Below, piece by piece: positions 2,918 to 61,402 of a stretch of 64,000 nucleotides of DNA. The stretch covers positions 161,820,001 to 161,884,000 of the forward strand of contig OX597816.1 of NCBI GenBank assembly GCA_951406725.2, read 5' to 3'. Both the position numbers and the translations under genes were made by a program. This stretch comes from Octopus vulgaris. Taxonomy: Eukaryota. Each line of letters begins with the position of its first letter. Within the stretch, counting starts at the first letter, position 1. The notes under the pieces were generated by a model, which ran no database searches, had not been told where the DNA came from, and was given only the letters and a program-made list of their open reading frames with translations.

Positions 2918-3597
2918 CATAAATATATGCACATATATTTATATATAGACATACGCCCACATACATACACCTACCTATATGCATGTATGCATTTATATAA
3001 ATACACACACATATAGATATATACATATATGTATGCGTGTGTGTGTGTGTGTGTGCATATAATTATAGTAACAAGTTGACGACTCAGATCTGCATTGCCA
3101 AAAGTTTCACAGATGCAAACACCACGTGTCTTCGTGAATGAAGCTGATTGTTATTCAGAAGGCATGACCGCCTCGTCTCTTTCAGTAACATAAATCTGAA
3201 TCGAACAACTTTTAGTACGAACATATAAGAACCAATACGTGAGTTGAGCGGTCTGGTATTCTTTTCTTATTCGAGCATACCTATATACCTATATATATAT
3301 ATCTATCTATATATTCAACAATTGAGGGTAAAATTAATTAATTATTAATCAATTTCACCAAGTGTTCAGTATGCAAAGGGACCATTTAAGGCGAATTCAA
3401 ATTATTACATTATATAAAAGGGCTTAGTAAAATAAATTACTTTGCCGCATACTGAACTCATTAGAAATAGCAGCTAAAAAACTTTTTTAAAGTTATTTCT
3501 AATACTTAAAGAAAATCTCTCTCATATAGTGCTTGTTTAACTCAACTCACGAAAGTTTAGGGGTAAAGACATCAAAAAATCAAATGCAAAGGTTATT

Positions 3598-3649
3598 TGA
3601 GAACGTACGTTTCAAGATTAGTCAACACTACACTTCTATCATCAGCTCA
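3598..3649 (-). ncRNA. Type I hammerhead ribozyme motif (unit 1)
   Basis: Minus strand TGAG-CTGATGA-tAGA..TAGT gttg ACTA..TCTt-GAAA-CGTACG-TT-CTCA; 4-bp stem I, palindromic stem III, GUU site, U.U mismatch at base of stem II. Confidence 0.7.
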
Positions 3650-4158
3650 GAAACTCCATTGGTTTGGATTTGAAAACACTGAAAGTGAGAGCATACCCTT
3701 CCGGCTTCTCATCGCTTTCGAAGATCTGCTCGTAACTAACAGTGCCAACAAACTCAAACATGCAAGCGAAGAATTTCAGTTCTCCCCTTTCCACCAGCGT
3801 GGGTTAAAATCAGCAAACACTATGCTTATTTCGGTAAAATCCGAAGCATTAATTAGAGGGAGATTAATTATAATTTCAACAATTGAGGGTAAAATTAATT
3901 AATTATTAATCAATTTCACCAAGTGTTCAGTATGCAAAGGGACCATTTAAGGCGAATTCAAATTATTACATTATATAAAAGGGCTTAGTAAAATAAATTA
4001 CTTTGCCGCATACTGAACTCATTAGAAATAGCAGCTAAAAAACTTTTTTAAAGCTATTTCTAATACTTAAAGAAAATCTCTCTCATATAGTGCTTGTTTA
4101 ACTCAACTCACGAAAGTTTGGGGGTAAAGACATCAAAAAATCAAATGCAAAGGTTATT

Positions 4159-4210
4159 TGAGAACGTACGTTTCAAGATTAGTCAACACGACACTTCTAT
4201 CATCAGCTCA
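4159..4210 (-). ncRNA. Type I hammerhead ribozyme motif (unit 2)
   Basis: Same motif 561 bp away with one substitution in stem II. Confidence 0.68.
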
Positions 4211-4727
4211 GAAACTCCATTGGTTTGGATTTGAAAACACTGAAAGTGAGAGCATACCCTTCCGGCTTCTCATCGCTTTCGAAGATCTGCTCGTAACTAA
4301 CAGTGCCAACAAACTCAAACATGCAAGCGAAGAATTTCAGTTCTCCCCTTTCCACCAGCGTGGGTTAAAATCAGCAAACACTATGCTTATTTCGGTAAAA
4401 TCCGAAGCATTAATTAGAGGGAGATTAAATATATATATGTACGTGCCATCTCTGACGAGTACATGGTATTAGTTAACAACCCTGTTACCTAATATCCGGT
4501 TATCTAATAACCTGTCTATATGTATATATGTATAAATATGTACATGCATATGAATACACACACACGCCCACACACGCACGCAAACATGCGCACACACACA
4601 TATTTTGAAGTATATTTGCCACCTAAACGTGGCTAACCCTTAAGGTTTGATGCCACTGTTGCTTGTAGCCCCAGGAATACATTTCCAGCTGGCTATAGAC
4701 ACACTACATATATATATATTTATATAT

Positions 4728-9354: not shown

Positions 9355-10262
9355 CGCGGATTGAACAATAACGCGGATTGAACAATATAATCAAAAACAA
9401 TCTTAAATGTTAGTTTTTATTTTACGCAGTTGGTCCATCTTTGGCGTCAGTAACATCCATCTAGGAATTGACTCGTACAGCTTCTGAACAGTTGCTAAAG
9501 GAATTTTGAGCCATTCTTCAAATAAAATCTGCTCTAGCTTTTTATTTTGTTTTCTACTCTAGGCACAAGGCCGGAAATTTTGGAGTATGGGGGCAGTCGA
9601 TTAGATCAACCCCAGTACGTAACAGGTACTTAAAATATCGGCCCCGGAAGGATCAAAGGCAAAGTCACCCTCTGCGGAATTTGAACGCAGAACGTAAAGA
9701 CAGACGAAATGCCGTTAAGCATTCGCCCGTCGTGGTAACGTTTCTTATTTCTTTACTACCCACAAGGGGCTACACACAGAGGGGACAAACAAGAACAGAC
9801 AAACGGATTAAGTCGATTATATCGACCCCAGTGCGTAACTGGTACTTATTTAACCGACCCCGAAAGGATGAAAGGTAAAGTCGACCTCGGCGGAATTTGA
9901 ACTCAGAACGTAGCGGCAGACGAATTACCGCTAATCATTTGCCAGTTGTGCTAACGTTTCTGCCAGTTTTCCGCCTTTGCTCTAGCTTCTTAAGCGACAA
10001 TGGCAGAAGGAAGCGACCCCTCATTTGCCATTCCACAGTACACCACAGATGTTTAAATGCTTGATTGTATTGAGATCAAAGGATTGTGGTGGCCAATTCA
10101 AGGGGTCTGCTTCCGTTTTGCGCTCTTTTCCAAATCAGATACTTCACACAATTTATTTAAATATATCTGCAACCCCATCCCACAAAAAATACTCCCCCCC
10201 CCAAAAAAAAAGGTAGATGGCCGTATCATGGAGGGCAATACTATGAACACTGTCATAATGGC
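9355..10262 (-). pseudogene. Tc1-family transposase C-terminal fragment interrupted by a SINE
   Basis: Minus translation [13 protein letters not shown] (WPxxSPDLNPIE motif) ... LSLKKLEQILFEEWLKIPLATVQKLYESIPR; frameshifted. Confidence 0.8.
9541..9977 (-). mobile_element. Dimeric SINE family B (Nin-like central domain) with 11-bp TSD
   Basis: TSD TGCTCTAGCTT at 9530-9540 and 9978-9988; two units each with a CCTTTCATCCTTTCGGGGTCG-like domain and GTTCAAATTCC B box. Confidence 0.85.
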
Positions 10263-15112: not shown

Positions 15113-15152
15113 GAGAGAGTTGGTATGTGAAAGCACCTGGTTGGATGTATAA

Positions 15153-15335
15153 AAGACAGACAAGAGTGAAAAAACTACAGAAGGCTTGTGTTATATGGTT
15201 AAAGAATATATTTAAATCGTTATGTTAGACAAATGTTACGCAAAATTTTATAACATTTGTCTAACATAACGAATTAAATATACTCTTTAACCATATAACA
15301 CAAGCCTTCTGTGGGTTTTTTTCACTCTTTTTTGT

Positions 15336-15338
<3 letters not shown>
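15153..15338. repeat. Long imperfect inverted repeat (about 86-bp arms, 12-nt spacer) between (TA)n tracts
   Basis: 15153-15238 is the reverse complement of 15251-15338 with a few mismatches. Confidence 0.9.
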
Positions 15339-15381
<43 letters not shown>

Positions 15382-15383
<2 letters not shown>

Positions 15384-15654
15384 TAGGTGAATGAATTATC
15401 CTAGTATGGACAATTCGGTTAACCGATACCCGGGTAGCAAATTCACGTCAGAAAATTATCACTATGGACTCCATGTGGGCAGTCATCTAAAAGTTTTTGT
15501 TCGTCATGATGCTGACATAAGTTCCTTGTCTTTCCTGATGAGAAGGCGGCATAATGCACCCTTTATTCCTTCGGAATTAAGAATATGCAGTCTTCGAAAC
15601 ATATGTCGAGAGTAAAGGAATTTTGTTAAAATCGTCGTTCGACTCCATTCTTTC

Positions 15655-15660
<6 letters not shown>
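15382..15660 (+). mobile_element. Small hammerhead-bearing element in (TA)n (Penelope pLTR-like)
   Basis: (TA)n on both sides; 5' and 3' ends homologous to 40836-41083. Confidence 0.7.
15530..15612 (+). ncRNA. Type I hammerhead ribozyme
   Basis: CTTTC-CTGATGA-GAAGGC..GCATA...TATGC..GTCTTC-GAAA-CATATG-TC-GAGAG; all stems pair; GUC site. Confidence 0.85.
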
Positions 15661-19646: not shown

Positions 19647-19800
19647 TACTGGATGTAGATTTGACAACCCTGTGATAGAAACAGCTGTAAGAGTTTGGTA
19701 TTTGTACACTCATTTATTCTTATTCGTTTATTTTTATTTATGTATTTATTTACTTATTTATTTGCTTATTTCATTCGTTTATTTGGATCACTTAGACATA

Positions 19801-20209
19801 GGCGCAGGAGTGGTTGTGTGGTAAGTAGCTTGCTAACCAACCACATGGTTCCGGGTTCAGTCCCACTGCGTGGCAACTTGGGCAAGTGTCTTCTGCTATA
19901 GCCCCGGGCCGACCAATGCCTTGTGAGTGGATTTGGTAGACGGAAACTGAAAGAAGCCCGTCGTATATATGTGTATATATATAAGTGTGTGTGTATATGT
20001 TTGTGTGTCTGTGTTTGTCCCCCTAGCATTGCTTGACAACCGATGCTGGTGTGTTTACGTCCCCGTCACTTAGCGGTTCGGCAAAAGAGACCGATAGAAT
20101 AAGTACTGGGCTTACAAAGAATAAGTCCCGGGGTCGATTTGCTCGACTAAAGGCGGTGCTCCAGCATGGCCGCAGGCAAATGACTGAAACAAGTAAAAGA
20201 GAAAAGAGA
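19801..20209 (+). mobile_element. Full-length tRNA-derived SINE family A (probably the abundant octopus OR-type SINE)
   Basis: GGCGCAGGAGTGG head with A/B boxes (GGGTTCAGTCCC), internal TA/TG microsatellite, AGTAAAAG tail; more than 10 copies in the window. Confidence 0.9.
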
Positions 20210-27132: not shown

Positions 27133-27551
27133 GGCGCAGGAGTGGCTGTGTGGTAAGTAGCTTGCTAACCAACCACATGGTTCCGGGTTCAGTCCCACTG
27201 TGTGGCATCTTGGGCAAGTGTCTTCTGCTATAGCCCCGGGCCGACCAATGCCTTGTGAGTGGATTTGGTAGACGGAAACTGAAAGAAGCCTGTCGTATAT
27301 ATGTATATATATATTTATGTGTGTATGTTTGTGTGTCTGTGTTTGTCCCCTTAGCATTGCTTGACAACCGATGCTGGTGTGTTTACGTCCCCGTCACTTA
27401 GCGTTTCGGCCAAAGAGACCGATATAATAAGTACTGGGCTTACAAAGAATAAGTCCCGGGGTCGATTTGCTCGACTAAAAGGCGGTGCTCCAGCATGGCC
27501 GCAGTCAAATGACTGAAACAAGTAAAAGAGTAAAAGAGAAAGAGTAAAGAG
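27133..27551 (+). mobile_element. Full-length SINE family A
   Basis: Near-identical to 19801-20209. Confidence 0.9.
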
Positions 27552-28924: not shown

Positions 28925-29580
28925 GCTACAACAAGTAACACCAAGAGCCCTCTTAATTATCCTGGCTGTCCCTAATAACACCGCTTTCTGGAGCTGTACT
29001 AAACTGCGTTTAATGCCTATTTCTTTTATTCATCTGTTCAAATCTTTCGGAATAATTTCCAATGCACCTATAACTACAGGGATACACTCTCCATAGTCTC
29101 AGTAATTCAATGGCTAGGCCCTTGTACTTTGCTATTTTTTTCTATACCTCTCATATTGATTTGTTTCATCATTTGGAACTGTAAAGTCAATCATCGGGTC
29201 CTTTCTATTCTCTTTATTTACTGCTACTACTAAATCAAGTCTTCTAGCTTCTATTACTCTGTCAGTCTGAATGTTAAAGTCCCACAACATCTTATATTTC
29301 TTACTTTCTAGTACTTTACTTGCTTCGTGTTCATACCATTTATCAGTGTGGTCAAATCCTAGCTTTCTACATAACTCCCGGTGGATTGCTGTCCCTAGAT
29401 TGTCATGTCTTTTCTTGTATTCTTTCTGTGCCAGCATGTTACATTCACTTACTATATGAGTAACGCTTTCCTCTTGATTTGCATAACCTACATTGGGAAA
29501 TCTACTTGGTCTTTGTCTATCTTGGCTTTTATCCAATTAGTCCTTAATGCTTGCATTTCCATTCCACATAATACGATTTT
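28925..29580 (-). pseudogene. R4/Dong-type non-LTR retrotransposon C-terminus (zinc knuckle remnant plus restriction-like endonuclease)
   Basis: ESVTHIVSEC..LAQKEYKKRHD..WYEH..LWDFNIQTDRVIEARRLDLVV..MIDFTVP. Confidence 0.85.
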
Positions 29581-39699: not shown

Positions 39700-39823
39700 A
39701 TAAATCCACTCACAAAGCTCGGGGCTATAGTAGAAGACACTTGCCCAAGGTGCCACGCAGTGAGACCGAACCCGGAACCATATGGTTGGTAAGAAAACTA
39801 CTTACAATACATCCACTCCTGCG

Positions 39824-39865
<42 letters not shown>

Positions 39866-40272
39866 CGCAGGAGTGGCTGTGTGGTAAGTAGCTTGCTTAC
39901 CAACCACATTGTTCTGGGTTCAGTCCCACTGCGTGTCACTTTGGGCAAGTGTCTTGTACTATAGCCTCGGGCCGACCAAAGCCTTGTGACTGGATTTGGT
40001 AAACGGAAACTGAAAGAAGCCCGTCGTATATATGTATATATATGTATGTGCATGTGTGTTTGTGAGTCTGTGTTTGTTCCCCTAGCATTGCTTGACAACC
40101 GATGCTGGCGTGTTTATGTCCCCGTCACTTAGCGGTTCGGCAAAAGAGACCGATAGAATAAGTACTGGGCTTACAAAGAATAAGTCCCGGGGTTGAGTTG
40201 CTCGATTGAAGGTGGTGCTCCAGCATGGCCGCAGTCAAATGACTGAAACAAGTAAAAGAGTAAAGATTAAGA
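39700..40272. mobile_element. Head-to-head SINE A pair: partial minus copy 39700-39826 and full plus copy 39863-40272 around (TA)n
   Basis: CCTGCGCC-(TA)n-GGCGCAGG. Confidence 0.85.
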
Positions 40273-40835
40273 GTATATATATATATCTATATACACATAT
40301 ATATAAACACATACACACATATATGTATATATATATATATATGCATGTGTGTGTATATATCTATGTATGTATATATACACATACTTTGTGTATATATATA
40401 CTTTGTCGTTCCGTTAAGGTAAGATCAATAAAGAAGTATTCCATCCAGTGAGAGATAATATCATTTATTGTACACAATATGAAGATACGAATTGCTAATA
40501 GATTCTGGCTTTGGAGACACGGGTCTAAGCCGGTCTTTGTAACACGCTTTGCGTCCCCTGGCAATCTGGAGGCTCTAAGCACATAGTCTATTCTATATGA
40601 AAATCTCGTGTATTCTTATTTGCAAATAGAATAGACCATGTGCTCAGAGCCTGGGATTGTTTGGAGACATAAGGCCTGTTATAAAAGCCTGCCTAAGCCA
40701 GTGTCTTCAAAGGAAGAAATTATTAATAGTTCGCATACATACGTACAGACATACGTACATACGTACATACATGCATGCATTAATACATACATAATACATA
40801 CATACATGCATACATACATATATACATACATACAT

Positions 40836-41083
40836 AAGTAGTTGAATGAATTATCTTAGTATGGATAATTCGGTTAACCGATACCTGGGTAGCAAATTCA
40901 CGTCAGAAAAACACGGTTGAAGCTACATGCCAAGGGCAGATATCACGTGCTTTCGTGTGGAAATTTGTGTGTTTTTTTAATACAAATAAATGAAAGAATG
41001 GAGTTGAACGACGATTTAACAAAATTTTTTTATTCTCTAAATCGTCGTTCAACTCCATTCTTTCATTTATTTGTATTAAAAAA
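40836..41083 (+). mobile_element. Second copy of the 15382 element, lacking the hammerhead and with an inverted 3'-end duplication
   Basis: 40836-40910 matches the start of the 15382 element; 46-bp arms 40973-41018 and 41038-41083. Confidence 0.8.
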
Positions 41084-43269: not shown

Positions 43270-43368
43270 TGTTCCCTGACGATACATTGCAGTTAAGTAT
43301 CCTAATTCGCTTGGGACATCTAATGCTGAGTTCCAATTAACTACAATGGCGAAACGTACGTAGGAACA
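43270..43368 (+). ncRNA. Type I hammerhead ribozyme
   Basis: TGTTCC-CTGACGA-taCATTGcAGTTAA...TTAACTaCAATGgc-GAAA-CGTACG-TA-GGAACA; 6-bp stem I; first two stem II pairs mismatched. Confidence 0.7.
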
Positions 43369-48177: not shown

Positions 48178-48860
48178 CTAATGTAGGATAAAATTCTTTT
48201 CGGGAAAAAATTTTTTATCAATGGCCAGCATATCAAAAAACACATTTAAAGGTTAAATTTATAAATAATTTACAAAATAACGGCAAAAGAAAAATTCTAA
48301 TGCCAAATATGCCGAAAAAGACAAAAATTGTTAATAACCATTATGATTCATGCGTCTCGAAACAAACCGATAGAAATTTCTAAAAAATCCGTTATTACCG
48401 TATTGGTCCCAATTTCGGGGTTAATTCATAAGAATTTCCCCCTCTTCAGCGATAAATACGTGAGATATAAGTGAAATACTTACTCATACCCATAGAAAAA
48501 GCAAGTACTAAGTCCTGAGCAGACCTAAGTACCCCAAATATATCCAAAATAGAAAAATATATATGTATATATATGCATATATATATATGTGTCTAAACAT
48601 ATATATATGTAAATATACATACATATATATGTATATCTATCTATATGTTATATATGTGTGTATGTCATTGTGTCTGTGTTTGTCGCCCACCACCCCATGA
48701 CAACCGGTGTAGATGTGATTATGTACCTGTAACTTAGCAGCTTGGAAAGCAGGACTGATAGAACAAGCATAAGCTTATGAATATTCTGGGGTAGATTCGT
48801 TCGGCTAAAATACCAACATGGCAGCGATCGAATGACTGAATCGAGTAAGTGATAAAGGAT
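47941..48860 (+). mobile_element. Old SINE family A copy split by an insertion (48176-48560) in its internal TA tract
   Basis: 5' half 47941-48100 and 3' half 48660-48860. Confidence 0.7.
48395..48455 (-). ncRNA. Type I hammerhead ribozyme (AUA site)
   Basis: TTATCG-CTGAAGA-GGGG..AATTC ttat GAATT..CCCC-GAAA-TTGG ga CCAA-TA-CGGTAA. Confidence 0.8.
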
Positions 48861-48862
48861 TT

Positions 48863-48910
<48 letters not shown>

Positions 48911-48938
48911 AATATACATATACATACATATATATATA

Positions 48939-49551
48939 TGCTAAACCCTTAATTGCTTAGTATTACTTAAATTTTCCTCGAATGGGGCTTTTACATGCCG
49001 AAGACTACTTGGTGTAATTGATAATTATTCCAAATTAATTAATTTCACCCTTCATTGTTACTGATAACCATATTCATCCCAGTAAATGACCACAGCACTT
49101 TGTCTTGGCTACACGCGGGTGGGAAGGGACTGGTGACACAAACTTTCATTCAAACTTTGAATTTGGTGATACTGGCTGTGGCTTCTAGCTCGCTCTGATA
49201 CTGAGTTGAGTTGGTGCCTTCTAGTATCTCAAAATTCAATATACAATCATTCATGATTGTTCGTATCCTGCGCTGATGAGAGAAGAAGTATGGGTAAGGT
49301 CGAATTATCTAATTCTTATGCTTTCCTAAGACTTGATCTCGAAACGTACGTCCGTAGGTGACTTAAAACTGTATGATAGATTGCCGTTAATTCATTCTCT
49401 CTTACCTGTTTGTGTTCGCCTTTCAAATGCTGTGTTTTTGCTGAGATCTCCCTTTTAGTAGAAGAAATAGCTATAATCTCTTTGACTGCTATTTCTAAAT
49501 TCGGTGTGCGGTAAGTCAATTCGTTGCTAAACCCTTAATTGCTTAGTATTA

Positions 49552-49555
<4 letters not shown>
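48939..49555 (+). mobile_element. 586-bp hammerhead-bearing monomer plus 31-bp terminal redundancy, in (TA)n (retrozyme-like)
   Basis: TGCTAAACCCTTAATTGCTTAGTATTACTTA at 48939-48969 and 49525-49555; homologous to the 561-bp unit. Confidence 0.85.
49267..49358 (+). ncRNA. Type I hammerhead ribozyme
   Basis: CCTGCG-CTGATGA-GAGA..AAGT...ACTT..TCTC-GAAA-CGTACG-TC-CGTAGG; canonical GUC site. Confidence 0.88.
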
Positions 49556-49610
<55 letters not shown>

Positions 49611-49614
49611 GTGT

Positions 49615-49945
49615 ATAATGGCAGGGCAAGACTGCTAGGTAGTGGGCCGTATGCTAGAAATAGATCATCAACGATCAAACTACAAAGAAAGTTCTCTAGA
49701 GGAAAAATTCAGCGAACACCAGAACCATATATATTCAAAATGTGACCGCGTATGTACTGTTGGTGATTTTTTTCCTCCGTCTTCCCATCTCTGGATCTTT
49801 CCTTCTCCTATGTTTCCTAAGAAGAGCTCTGCTCGAAACGTTAAACCCTCCTTCTTTCCTTCTTTCCTGAACGTCCAATAATACTATATTTGTTCCACGT
49901 CCTCGCGTTGTTGTGTTCTTTTGTGCTTTCTTGTTTGGATTAACT
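49615..49945 (+). mobile_element. Small element with a decayed minimal hammerhead (49812-49846)
   Basis: GTTT-CCTAAGA-aGAGC tct GCTC-GAAA-CG-TT-AAAC; core mutated. Confidence 0.5.
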
Positions 49946-50029: not shown

Positions 50030-50720
50030 ACATTGGGAGGGGCATAATACCGGTAATAATATATATACATATACACACAATTAAAAAAGCCGCAACTAGT
50101 TTCATTCTGTAGAGATACAATAGTTTGATAGATTTATATAACATGCCAAGTGTATCTAAACAATCTTTCAGGTTTCAGTGCATACCATTGGACCTACTTG
50201 AATACCAGGACGCTGATCTATGAGAAGACAAGAAAAAAAATGAATGGAAGAACACTAAGGAGGTTTATGCAAATGTGAAACGAGAAGAAGAGTAGGAAAA
50301 CCAAATCTTTGTTCCGTTTGTCTATAAAATCAAATAATCTAGCTGGTGTAGAATAATATAACGGAGAGGAGACCAAAGTCTGTGGGATAGCAACTGAATC
50401 TGAAGAGAGTGGTGTCCTCCAGTCTAACAAAAGGAACTTGCCTATGTGCTTGCATTTACTATACATTTCGGGCCTACAATTAAATAGTGTGTTGGAATTC
50501 TTAGATTTAAAAAGAACATGCAACCTTTTAGTTACGCATAACATGCATCTCTTTGATCCGTTTACATATGGCGTAGATTTCTCCACGATTCTCCACTCGA
50601 TTGTATGTGGTATACAGTTGGTATTCAGATCGCATACAAAGCAAAACAACTTTATGGCTTTACTTTTATCAAAGTGGTGGAGAGAGGCCGGGGATTTGTA
50701 TAGTAGTTTTTCAAATTGAC
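50030..50720 (-). pseudogene. Penelope-like element 3' end: C-terminal GIY-YIG endonuclease region plus downstream pLTR remnant
   Basis: TIEWRIVEKSTPYVNGSKRCMLCVTKRLHVL..LFNCRPEMYSKCKHIGKFLL fits the PLE pattern IxWxIxxKxxPYxxxxxxCxLCxxEK...LLNxRxExxxxCxH; decayed GAAA-CTAG-TT motif at about 50084-50093. Confidence 0.8.
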
Positions 50721-51002
50721 TTTAAATAAGTACTATTTTAGATTTGATCAACTAAATCTTTGAATGCGGTACTCCAGCATGATCCGCAGTGCAGTATGAG
50801 AATCAAAATGGAAATGTATACCCAAACCCACCAGTAGCCCGCCACATACGTGCACACACACACACACACACACACTGATACACACACAAACACATACATA
50901 TAGACATATATATACATATGTATATACGTGTATATATCTATACTAGCCATCACCGTATTTGTCTATACCTGTATATCTATATTTGTGTGTGTATATATAT
51001 AC

Positions 51003-55785: not shown

Positions 55786-56219
55786 ATTTACTCTTTTTAC
55801 TCTTTACTCTTTTACTCTTTTACTTGTTTCAGTCATTTGACTGCGGCCATGCTGGAGCACCGCCTTTAGTCGAGCAAATCGACCCCAGGACTTATTCTTT
55901 GTAAGCCTAGTACTTATTCTATCGGTCTCTTTTGCCGAACCGCTAAGTAACGGGGACAAAAACACACCAGTATCGGTTGTCAAGCGATGTTGGGAGGCCA
56001 AACATAGACACACATACATATACACACACATACATATATACATACATATATATATACGATAGGCTTCTTTCAGTTTCCGTCTACCAAATTCACTCACAAG
56101 GCTTCGGTTGGCCCGAGACTATAGTAGAAGACACTTGACCAAGGTTCCACGCAGTGGGACTGAACCCGGAACCATGTGGTAGGTAAGCAAGCTACTTACC
56201 ACACAGCCACTCCTGCGCC
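55786..56219 (-). mobile_element. Full-length SINE family A
   Basis: Reverse complement of the consensus with an (AGTAAAAG)n tail. Confidence 0.9.
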
Positions 56220-59593: not shown

Positions 59594-59642
<49 letters not shown>

Positions 59643-59651
59643 CTCTATATA

Positions 59652-59687
<36 letters not shown>

Positions 59688-60108
59688 CATACATACATAC
59701 ATATATATATATCAGTAGGCCACGCGCCTTTACACATATAAACACGCACACATAAGCCTCTGAAATTGCAATACCCTCTGCTCTGGCATATTCTGATTGC
59801 AGTTTAATTCTGGGCTTATAGCAAAGTGGTTGAAACTTGTCAGCATTGAACTTCATATTGTTTTCTTCAGCACGCTTGTATATTGCAATCCAATCTTTCA
59901 GTAGTTTTCTGTAATCTTAATAGTCCTTCATTGCCCGTGATACTTTTGTATCATCAGAACAACTGGCGGATGTGCTTGGTTGCATGACTGCTGACAGGTC
60001 AGGTCCGGCAACCATCAGAAACAGCAGTGCTCCCAGTACAGTTCCCTGAGGGGCTCAGTCAGTTTAGTCTTGATGTCTCCATTTCCCCTTTCTCCTCCTC
60101 CGAGAGAA

Positions 60109-60165
<57 letters not shown>

Positions 60166-60253
60166 TATGTAGGTCCCGGGTTGAGTCGGGGTTAACCACA
60201 GTAAATAAGGTACTCAATACATAGCAGAGTAAATTAATTTATTTTATAGAAGG

Positions 60254-60304
60254 AGCTTCTACAGGACTAGAACTGTTTCATTCAAATGAAATCATCAGGA
60301 AGCT
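60254..60304 (-). ncRNA. Type I hammerhead (minus-strand mirror copy)
   Basis: Exact reverse complement of 60317-60367. Confidence 0.7.
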
Positions 60305-60316
60305 TGCTGGCCAGCA

Positions 60317-60367
60317 AGCTTCCTGATGATTTCATTTGAATGAAACAGTTCTAGTCCTGTAGAAGCT
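60317..60367 (+). ncRNA. Type I hammerhead ribozyme motif
   Basis: AGCTTC-CTGATGA-tTTC attt GAAt-GAAA-CAG ttctagtc CTG-TA-GAAGCT. Confidence 0.7.
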
Positions 60368-61094
60368 CCTTCTATGAAATAAAATATATAGATAGATAGA
60401 TAGATAGAGAGAAGAAGAGAGGGAGAGAGAGAGAAAGAGAGGGTACCATTGACTACGACTGCCTGACTCCTTTGTTTTAAAAAAACATGCAGCCATTTTC
60501 CTAGTTTACCAACGGTACCAAGGTCACACAGTTTGGGACATGTCACATCGTAATCGGCTTTGGCGAAGGCCTTACCCGAGTCGATATATATCACGTCTAC
60601 AATTGAACGGCTGAGCTTTCATGGTATTGTAGCTGTATGTGGTGGCTCCCTCATGAGTGAAAGCCATGCCTCATTTTAGTGAACACGTCATTTTCTTTTA
60701 GAAATCTGACCAGCTTCCTTCTGACAATGCATCTCATGGCTTTGCCGACATATGAGGTTTCAGAGATAGACCTGTAATTTGTTTCATCTACTCTGCTTCC
60801 TTCTTTGCGGATAGAGCATCTGATATATTCTTTTAATATTTTGGGAAGTTTGCTACTTTGCGAGGAAATTCTGGAAATGTATCTCCAGTGATTTTGCGAG
60901 AGCTTGCTTTCTTGCATGCCTTTCAAAAAAATAGCTGGAAGACAAACACGGCCTGTCACTGTGTTCAAGTTCATCGCATTAATGGACGATATTATACCCT
61001 TTTCTTTTATGTCAATGTAATCGATGGTTGTCTCTTCCTTGTGTGGATCTGAAATATTGAAGAAAGATGCCAAGTTTTGTTCTAGATAAGAGTA

Positions 61095-61196
<102 letters not shown>

Positions 61197-61402
61197 GTAT
61201 ATATGATATATTAATAATATATTATTATTAATATTAGGAAACCAATATCAAAACTCCCCAGAAAGATGAACACGTGTGAAAAATAATTGTTGTATTAAAA
61301 ATATATAAATGAATAAATATAAATATGTATAAAAAAAATATATATAAGTATAAATATATAATGTATATGACAGTTTAAAAATTTTGAATTAATTATTTAA
61401 AG

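What the first reader, a model, noticed from the sequence alone, without database searches (positions are those of the whole stretch)
48939..49555. Circularly permuted 586-nt relative with a 31-bp terminal redundancy
Seen: one 586-bp monomer plus a repeat of its first 31 bp, between (TA)n tracts, with a canonical GUC hammerhead. It aligns by eye to the reverse complement of the 561-bp unit (CTGCTATTTCTAA..TTC.GT.TGCGG, ACTTGGTG.AATTGAT..AATTAATTAATTT.ACCCT, CACGC.GGTGG.AAGGG) but starts at a different point of the unit. The redundancy is element-internal sequence, so it is not a host TSD. Inference: different entry points plus slightly more than one round of copying is what reverse transcription of a circular or concatemeric RNA would leave.
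Basis: partly seen in the sequence, partly recalled or inferred. Interest (0 to 1): 0.85.

Follow-up and report, generated by a model that had tools for sequence, protein, structure and literature searches.

The report
Hammerhead retrozyme with a Penelope tail
This is one copy of an abundant, protein-free jumping element carrying a predicted self-cutting hammerhead RNA, and its 31-base end repeat is likely the known 'tail' left by Penelope-type retrotransposon enzymes, which points to the enzyme class that likely moves such animal retrozymes.

Summary
In detail: 48939-49555 is a 586-nt unit plus an exact repeat of its first 31 nt, between (TA)n tracts, with a type I hammerhead (GUC at 49350-49352). 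It is collinear around the whole circle with the 561-nt near-dimer at 3314-4428 (56% identity) but opens about 90 nt away. Contigs of four public runs show a high-copy family whose substitutions spare the predicted sense-strand fold. Because the copy runs through the hammerhead site and re-enters its start, its template was likely a circle or an uncut multimer, which is the published retrozyme/Penelope model. The ends are not scattered at random, though. Other copies reuse both ends, and both units end 15-25 nt after the same ACCCTYAATTG motif, which has a second copy in the unit. The 31-mer matches the 30-40-bp Penelope-like element (PLE) 'tail', and (TA)n is a PLE target; a Hydra-type PLE remnant lies 850 bp away. 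Verdict: a non-autonomous PLE-mobilised non-LTR retrozyme, a variant of a known kind. Cleavage, circular RNA and the helper enzyme are untested.

The parts
48863..48938 (.). left (TA)n-rich target tract
48939..49524 (+). 586-nt unit, non-coding, 38% GC, strongly folded on the + strand only
   Evidence: period 586; circular MFE z -6.2 sense, -0.6 antisense, 40 shuffles each; longest stop-free frames 51 aa (+) and 72 aa (-)
48939..48969 (+). first copy of the 31-mer; predicted 6-bp hairpin with an AAACCC-containing loop
48945..48957 (+). motif ACCCTTAATTGCT, first copy (repeated at 49531-49543 in the tail); inferred end-determining signal
48994..49002 (+). 3' arm of a helix that pairs with 49500-49508 across the unit junction and encloses the tail on a circular or tandem RNA
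   Evidence: predicted in both units, with one two-sided and two one-sided changes between them
49011..49049 (+). A/U-rich hairpin conserved with the 561-nt unit
49047..49059 (+). second copy of the motif (ACCCTTCATTGTT); its counterpart precedes the 3' end of the 561-nt array
49267..49358 (+). type I hammerhead: helix I 49267-72/49353-58, core 49273-79, extended helix II 49280-49340, GAAA, 2-bp helix III with GUAC loop, predicted cut after C49352
   Evidence: family variants turn the helix I G-U into A-U and suggest G-C to A-U at 49282/49338 (unphased)
49500..49508 (+). 5' arm of the junction-spanning helix
49525..49555 (+). 31-nt terminal redundancy, read as the PLE 'tail'
   Evidence: size and position match the tail described
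49556..49609 (.). right (TA)n target tract
3314..4428 (-). related 561-nt unit as a head-to-tail array of 1115 nt (two units less 7 nt; 3 differences in 554), between short TA-rich tracts, one hammerhead per unit (GUU triplet)

Best explanation
This is a dispersed, protein-free copy of a high-copy hammerhead repeat (a non-LTR retrozyme) that was likely inserted into (TA)n by a Penelope-like element's reverse transcriptase and endonuclease acting in trans, and its 31-nt redundancy is likely the PLE tail. Shown: unit plus 31 nt, TA flanks, hammerhead anatomy, family abundance, recurrent ends, shared end motif. Inferred steps: (1) head-to-tail arrays such as 3314-4428 are transcribed; (2) the hammerheads cut the multimer, possibly as dimers through the palindromic helix III, and a host ligase closes monomers; (3) a PLE protein nicks (TA)n and starts cDNA internally, 15-25 nt 3' of the ACCCUYAAUUG hairpin; (4) it copies through the hammerhead site, once round and 31 nt more, which needs a circle or an uncut multimer (I put the circle slightly ahead, about 55:45); (5) the 5' end is set at the near edge of the same signal, by endonuclease resolution or a stall. 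The permutation between the two families likely reflects a switch between two copies of the signal, the first having decayed in the 561-nt family.
For: Tail size and place match PLEs. (TA)n is the target of Hydra and Naiad PLEs. Ends recur: 22, 23 and 13 contigs of the three DNA-type runs run through the 10-nt TA flanks, against 130, 149 and 115 contigs only partly laid anywhere, a 3- to 8.5-fold excess over random entry; one X2 contig joins an end at 49545 through 20 TA-rich letters to a start at 48942; X2 record 16 ends here with 9 differences in 75; X10 has a TA loose end after 49549. The motif occurs 5 times in the 64-kb window, all 5 in these two elements; the best match of the tail on the 561 circle (12 of 15) is at that array's end; 13 of 3000 random windows do as well. 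Of 40 listed family substitutions 7 break a predicted pair, 14.9 +/- 2.4 expected, P = 0.001. All 29 bins are covered in 4 of 4 runs, by 1715, 1335, 1124 and 110 contigs. No PLE protein match in either unit, while a Hydra-type endonuclease end lies at 50407-50745. Animal retrozymes are argued to be PLE derivatives.
Against: Terminal bins hold only 7-28% of the depth of the neighbouring bins, so many copies do not end here or such contigs were filtered. Only 24 of 230 loose ends, 40 of 76 variants and 32 of 4314 pieces were shown. The enrichment is biased: TA flanks in the query favour laying of end contigs, and this locus with its alleles contributes some. No contig showed a clean head-to-tail joint of the 586 family; two X3 joints (49540 to 49120, 49540 to 49442) and one X9 joint (48973 to 49538) are unexplained. 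The motif was found after the fact from two elements. The 561 array has no tail and only one copy was seen. No autonomous PLE sharing the motif was found (exact-motif search of the PMC8557442 supplement: 0). Helix II is atypically long, and 8 of 9 predicted Xenopus retrozymes did not cleave in vitro.
Confidence: 0.7

Rival explanations
1. A solo pseudo-LTR or gutted by-product of an autonomous PLE: it has the tail because its parent has, and it is not a self-propagating retrozyme.
For: pLTRs hold type I hammerheads and tails; most PLE insertions are 5'-truncated; an earlier AI note read a similar 278-nt case this way (unchecked).
Against: No PLE protein match in either unit (9 query proteins, hits only at 50347-50745); homology with the 561 unit runs round the whole circle, leaving no place for an ORF; the whole unit is abundant and under 0.5% of laid DNA contigs run on into unlike sequence; selection on the fold extends over the unit.
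Confidence: 0.15
2. One reading: a reverse transcriptase enters a circular RNA anywhere and stops after a little more than one round, so ends are scattered and the 31 nt is an arbitrary overshoot.
For: The two families open about 90 nt apart; in both, the 5' and 3' ends lie near a whole number of units (+31, -7); retrozyme circles are abundant in coral, mussel and axolotl; low depth at the terminal bins.
Against: Both ends recur in other copies and organisms; both families end after one motif; 31 nt is the known tail size.
Confidence: 0.09
3. DNA-level origin: a true 31-bp target-site duplication, or a satellite monomer moved by excision and recombination at TA-like sequence, with the hammerhead as a passenger.
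For: Large TSDs are mentioned for animal retrozymes; the 561 array's ends lie in an AT-rich stretch that resembles the target; the empty site was not seen.
Against: The 31-mer is internal in the 561 unit and at high depth across the family; folding is strand-specific in this unit and variants keep G-U/A-U pairing, as expected for selection on RNA.
Confidence: 0.06

Closest known systems
Metazoan non-LTR retrozymes (Cervera and de la Pena 2020, PMC7229834; Li, Clavereau, Pollet, bioRxiv 10.64898/2026.07.22.740005)
   Same: Non-coding, under 50% GC, type I hammerhead with short palindromic helix III, tandem and monomeric copies, high copy number, strongly self-paired predicted circle with the hammerhead free to fold.
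   Different: 586 nt against 170-400 nt for the invertebrate cases of the 2020 paper (inside the 51-972 bp range of the preprint); helix II extended by about 50 nt; carries a PLE-size tail and a shared end motif, whereas a 2020 review says these repeats show no motif that names their helper (PMC7761336). RNA circles not shown here.
Endonuclease-bearing Penelope-like elements: Penelope/Poseidon (PAc, PMC11167929; Pen2a_Av, PMC3846280) and Hydra clade (PMC8557442)
   Same: 30-40-bp optional tail, internal start of reverse transcription in an AC-rich stem-loop downstream of the hammerhead, AT-rich or (TA)n targets, head-to-tail copies, type I hammerheads with A, C or U at the cut.
   Different: No ORF; no 5'-truncated upstream partial copy; tail 173-203 nt past the cut against 85-92 nt in PAc (111-118 nt into the ORF, cut at +26); the 5' end also recurs.
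Non-autonomous Chlamys PLEs such as MRC1 (PMC8557442)
   Same: Non-autonomous, pLTR-forming, multicopy head-to-tail, microsatellite targets.
   Different: Algal, mostly without hammerheads, and share 3' sequence with an identified parent; no parent identified here.

Membership tests
non-LTR retrozyme | type I hammerhead with intact core in each unit | tested here: met
   both units of the 561 array also
non-LTR retrozyme | no protein-coding capacity, no LTR pair, GC under 50% | tested here: met
   PBS and PPT were not searched
non-LTR retrozyme | head-to-tail tandem copies with a hammerhead in each | tested here: inconclusive
   met by the 561-nt relative; for the 586 family no clean tandem joint was listed, one contig shows two copies separated by TA
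non-LTR retrozyme | multicopy in the genome | tested here: met
   1124-1715 contigs of 82-100% likeness in three DNA-type runs under three organism labels; no copy number
non-LTR retrozyme | loop 1-loop 2 tertiary contact of canonical type I hammerheads | tested here: inconclusive
   helix II is extended and no standard short loop 2 is seen; mussel retrozymes also lack most of these nucleotides
non-LTR retrozyme | self-cleavage | not testable with these tools
   needs in vitro transcription
non-LTR retrozyme | accumulates as monomeric circular RNA | tested here: inconclusive
   X10 (RNA only by guess, contigs) covers 29 of 29 bins; contigs cannot show strand, ends or circles
autonomous EN+ PLE | ORF with RT and GIY-YIG endonuclease | tested here: not met
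PLE-mobilised insertion | 30-40-bp tail repeating element sequence at the 3' end | tested here: met
   31 nt
PLE-mobilised insertion | AT-rich or (TA)n target without a discernible TSD | tested here: met
   further TA junctions; empty site not seen
PLE-mobilised insertion | preferred 3' start sites of reverse transcription | tested here: inconclusive
   ends recur at 49545-49555 with 3- to 8.5-fold excess, but the count is biased and incomplete
PLE-mobilised insertion | sequence shared with the pLTR of an autonomous partner | tested here: inconclusive
   no genome held; exact motif absent from the PMC8557442 supplement as held; a Hydra-type remnant exists nearby but shares no detected DNA

The most novel reading that the evidence does not exclude
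An animal retrozyme circle that carries its own PLE entry signal (ACCCUYAAUUG hairpin): a Hydra-type PLE protein primes there from nicked (TA)n, copies one round of the circle plus the tail, and the family becomes circularly permuted when the signal moves to a duplicate motif. This would name the enzyme that spreads animal retrozymes and make the PLE tail the footprint of a circular template.
Probability: 0.25. Interest if true: 0.75.

Novelty: new variant of a known kind. Interest (0 to 1): 0.45.

Why it matters
Which retrotransposon moves animal retrozymes, and whether the template is the circle, is stated as open (PMC7761336, PMC7229834, the 2026 preprint). A retrozyme that bears the PLE tail, PLE target and a defined end motif gives direct anatomical support for PLE mobilisation. 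As a 586-nt protein-free substrate with two candidate signals, it also allows a simple circle-versus-multimer test in the existing in vitro PLE assay. The classes of element and the more-than-unit model are already known, which limits the surprise.

Tried and rejected
No genome is held for this window, so copies could not be mapped in an assembly. Rfam: 0 matches at gathering score in the window; 12 weak matches at E up to 5 around the element, all to TA-rich flanks, none a hammerhead. Pattern scans found 0 loci in metagenome contigs, viral contigs and prokaryote genomes. No RNA holder was on record; X10 is RNA by guess only, and no listed X10 piece bridges the cleavage site by the 31-letter rule, so nothing is claimed on expression. 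Pfam: none of 9 window ORFs and none of 9 homologues matched RT or GIY-YIG families; the PLE reading of the remnant rests on motifs read in P0075 against the Hydra description and a weak atlas lead. A word-index search for longer relatives found none. A profile of the two units found no third relative in the window. The MAFFT alignment of seven hammerheads misplaced the two short ones and was not used. The TA tract as a built-in 3' end of the older repeat on the left: relatives followed by TA in 2 of 8 cases, no conclusion. Earlier scan notes: none by sequence or place. Host organism: not identified by any search; the microsatellite landscape resembles octopus by my recall only.

Full report
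Observation. The stretch 48939-49555 is a 586-nt unit followed by an exact copy of its first 31 nt, set between (TA)n tracts. It holds a hammerhead: helix I of 6 bp, CUGAUGA, helix II of 4 bp with an extension of about 50 nt, GAAA, a 2-bp helix III with the loop GUAC, and GUC at 49350-49352. The octamer across helix III is palindromic and cofolds with itself. This fits the description of canonical metazoan type I hammerheads (PMC4209133, passages) except for the long helix II. Rfam does not detect it. The pattern occurs 7 times in the window and 0 times in 200 shuffles.

The relative. 3314-4428 on the minus strand is a head-to-tail array of period 561, 1115 nt long, with 3 differences in 554 positions. 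Rotated to the hammerhead, the two units align round the whole circle (357 of 636 columns; score 125 against -62 +/- 15 for 200 shuffles). The array's 3' end aligns about 90 nt past this copy's end: 288 nt against 203 nt from the cleavage site. In both cases the 5' and 3' ends lie close to a whole number of units (+31 and -7). Neither unit has a PLE-like frame.

RNA structure. The 586 unit folds far better than shuffles on the hammerhead strand (z -6.2) and not on the other (z -0.6); the 561 unit gives -5.1 and -4.7, so strand specificity holds for one of the two (40 shuffles each). 34 pairs of 197 and 191 (probability above 0.3) are shared between the units, against 0-11 for slid controls; 27 are identical, 6 differ on one side, 1 on both. 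One shared helix joins 49500-49508 to 48994-49002, across the unit junction, and encloses the tail on a circular or tandem RNA.

The family. One search listed 24 runs, 20 holding part of the stretch, under three organism labels. I laid 4 of them: 1715, 1335, 1124 and 110 contigs, covering 29 of 29 bins in each. Of 76 variant sites 40 were shown; 7 break a predicted pair where 14.9 +/- 2.4 are expected (P = 0.001). Loose ends show a helix I variant with A-U in place of G-U, and A at 49282, which would pair with the common T at 49338 (unphased). X10 is RNA only by guess, so expression is not claimed.

Ends. Through the 10-nt TA flanks of the query run 22, 23 and 13 contigs of the three DNA-type runs, against 130, 149 and 115 that are only partly laid anywhere. 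That is at least 3- to 8.5-fold more than random entry predicts. One X2 contig goes from 49545 through 20 TA-rich letters to 48942; X2 record 16 ends here with 9 differences in 75; X3 record 17 starts at 48939 with 17 differences; X10 has TA after 49549. Of 24 loose ends shown, that is the only TA one. Against this: 206 loose ends were not shown, the flanks favour end contigs, this locus adds some, terminal bins carry only 7-28% of neighbouring depth, and three joints are unexplained. Preferred ends are supported; scattered ends in other copies are not excluded.

End motif. ACCCTYMATTGYT (one mismatch allowed) occurs 5 times in the window, all in these two elements: in the tail and at a second place in the 586 unit, and only at the second place in the 561 unit, just before its end. 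The tail's best match on the 561 circle is that site (12 of 15; 13 of 3000 random windows as good; 17 of 561 windows on the circle, all overlapping that one site). Ends seen lie 15-25 nt from the motif start in both families. The motif was derived after the fact.

Comparison with what is known. A 30-40-bp tail is a PLE hallmark (PMC8557442: passages, Hydra section and parts 1, 2, 52 of the supplement); it is 31 bp in Adineta Pen2a (PMC3846280, passages). In vitro it lies between two internal start sites of reverse transcription in an AC-rich stem-loop, and uncut RNA is the main template (PMC11167929, parts 1-2 of 4). Hydra PLEs have type I hammerheads and target (TA)n. A decayed endonuclease end at 50407-50745 matches P0075 (43% over 76 aa, E 8e-17), a 713-aa protein with the RWK-like, DKT, YRDDG, CxCX5C and CxxC/CxH motifs described for Hydra. 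Animal retrozymes and their circles are described in PMC7229834 (parts 2-4 of 6 and passages); more-than-unit copying from circles was proposed in PMC4209133 and PMC7761336 (passages); PLE origin is argued in bioRxiv 10.64898/2026.07.22.740005 (parts 1-3 of 5; its supplements are closed and could list such tails). My searches for tails or permutation in retrozymes and for octopus hammerheads listed no paper that reports this combination; they cover only the open library, and Repbase-type catalogues could not be searched.

Mechanism. Shown: anatomy, abundance, structural constraint, recurrent ends, shared motif. Inferred: transcription of arrays, cleavage and ligation, PLE nicking of (TA)n, internal priming near the motif, copying of one unit plus tail. 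A hammerhead-cut linear monomer primed at the tail could give only 203 nt, so this copy needs a circle, an uncut multimer or a template jump; the data do not separate these. I put the circle slightly ahead because both ends sit near whole-unit lengths in both families; endonuclease resolution at the tail, as suggested in PMC8557442, would explain that equally.

Verdict. A real feature; a non-LTR retrozyme, likely a non-autonomous PLE derivative, with a PLE tail. New variant of a known kind; interest 0.45.

Noticed in passing
window 50407-50745 (-): Decayed C-terminal end of a Hydra-type PLE endonuclease; 1036 relatives at E up to 0.001, longest ones with RT motifs. No hammerhead found behind it.
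   Followed up: partly
window 15535-15608 (+), 43276-43363 (+), 61489-61407 (-), 16575-16485 (-): Four further hammerheads with intact cores, palindromic helix III and a spacer of 50-70 nt between the core halves (long helix II predicted in three; 16575 folds otherwise); unrelated in sequence to the two units.
   Followed up: partly
window 15382-15657 and 40837-41083: TA-flanked hammerhead fragment and a relative with an inversion whose 3' end runs about 18 nt further: another family with short and long ends.
   Followed up: no
window 60235-60386: Near-perfect palindrome (arms of at least 71 nt) with a hammerhead-like core on each arm, like the inverted junctions of PLE insertions; other inverted repeats at 15145-15346, 39717-39972 and 40485-40736.
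   Followed up: no
window 49611-49935 (+), 22547-22505 (-), 47250-47215 (-): Short fragments with minimal, partly mutated hammerhead cores (GAAACGTT type); the first directly adjoins the right TA tract of the finding.
   Followed up: no
window 3314-4428 (-): The 561-nt hammerhead has a GUU triplet and a U-U opposition at the base of helix II; U at the cut is common in listed Hydra hammerheads.
   Followed up: partly
window 48686-48860, 20019-20209, 27347-27546, 40079-40275, 55793-55997; 19796-19963 family; 9550-9975 family: Several abundant 150-200-nt interspersed repeat families; an old copy of one forms the left flank of the finding.
   Followed up: no
window 29132-29536 (-), 59629-61247 (-): Frames that read like decayed LINE reverse-transcriptase pieces (by recall; Pfam gave no relevant match).
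   Followed up: no
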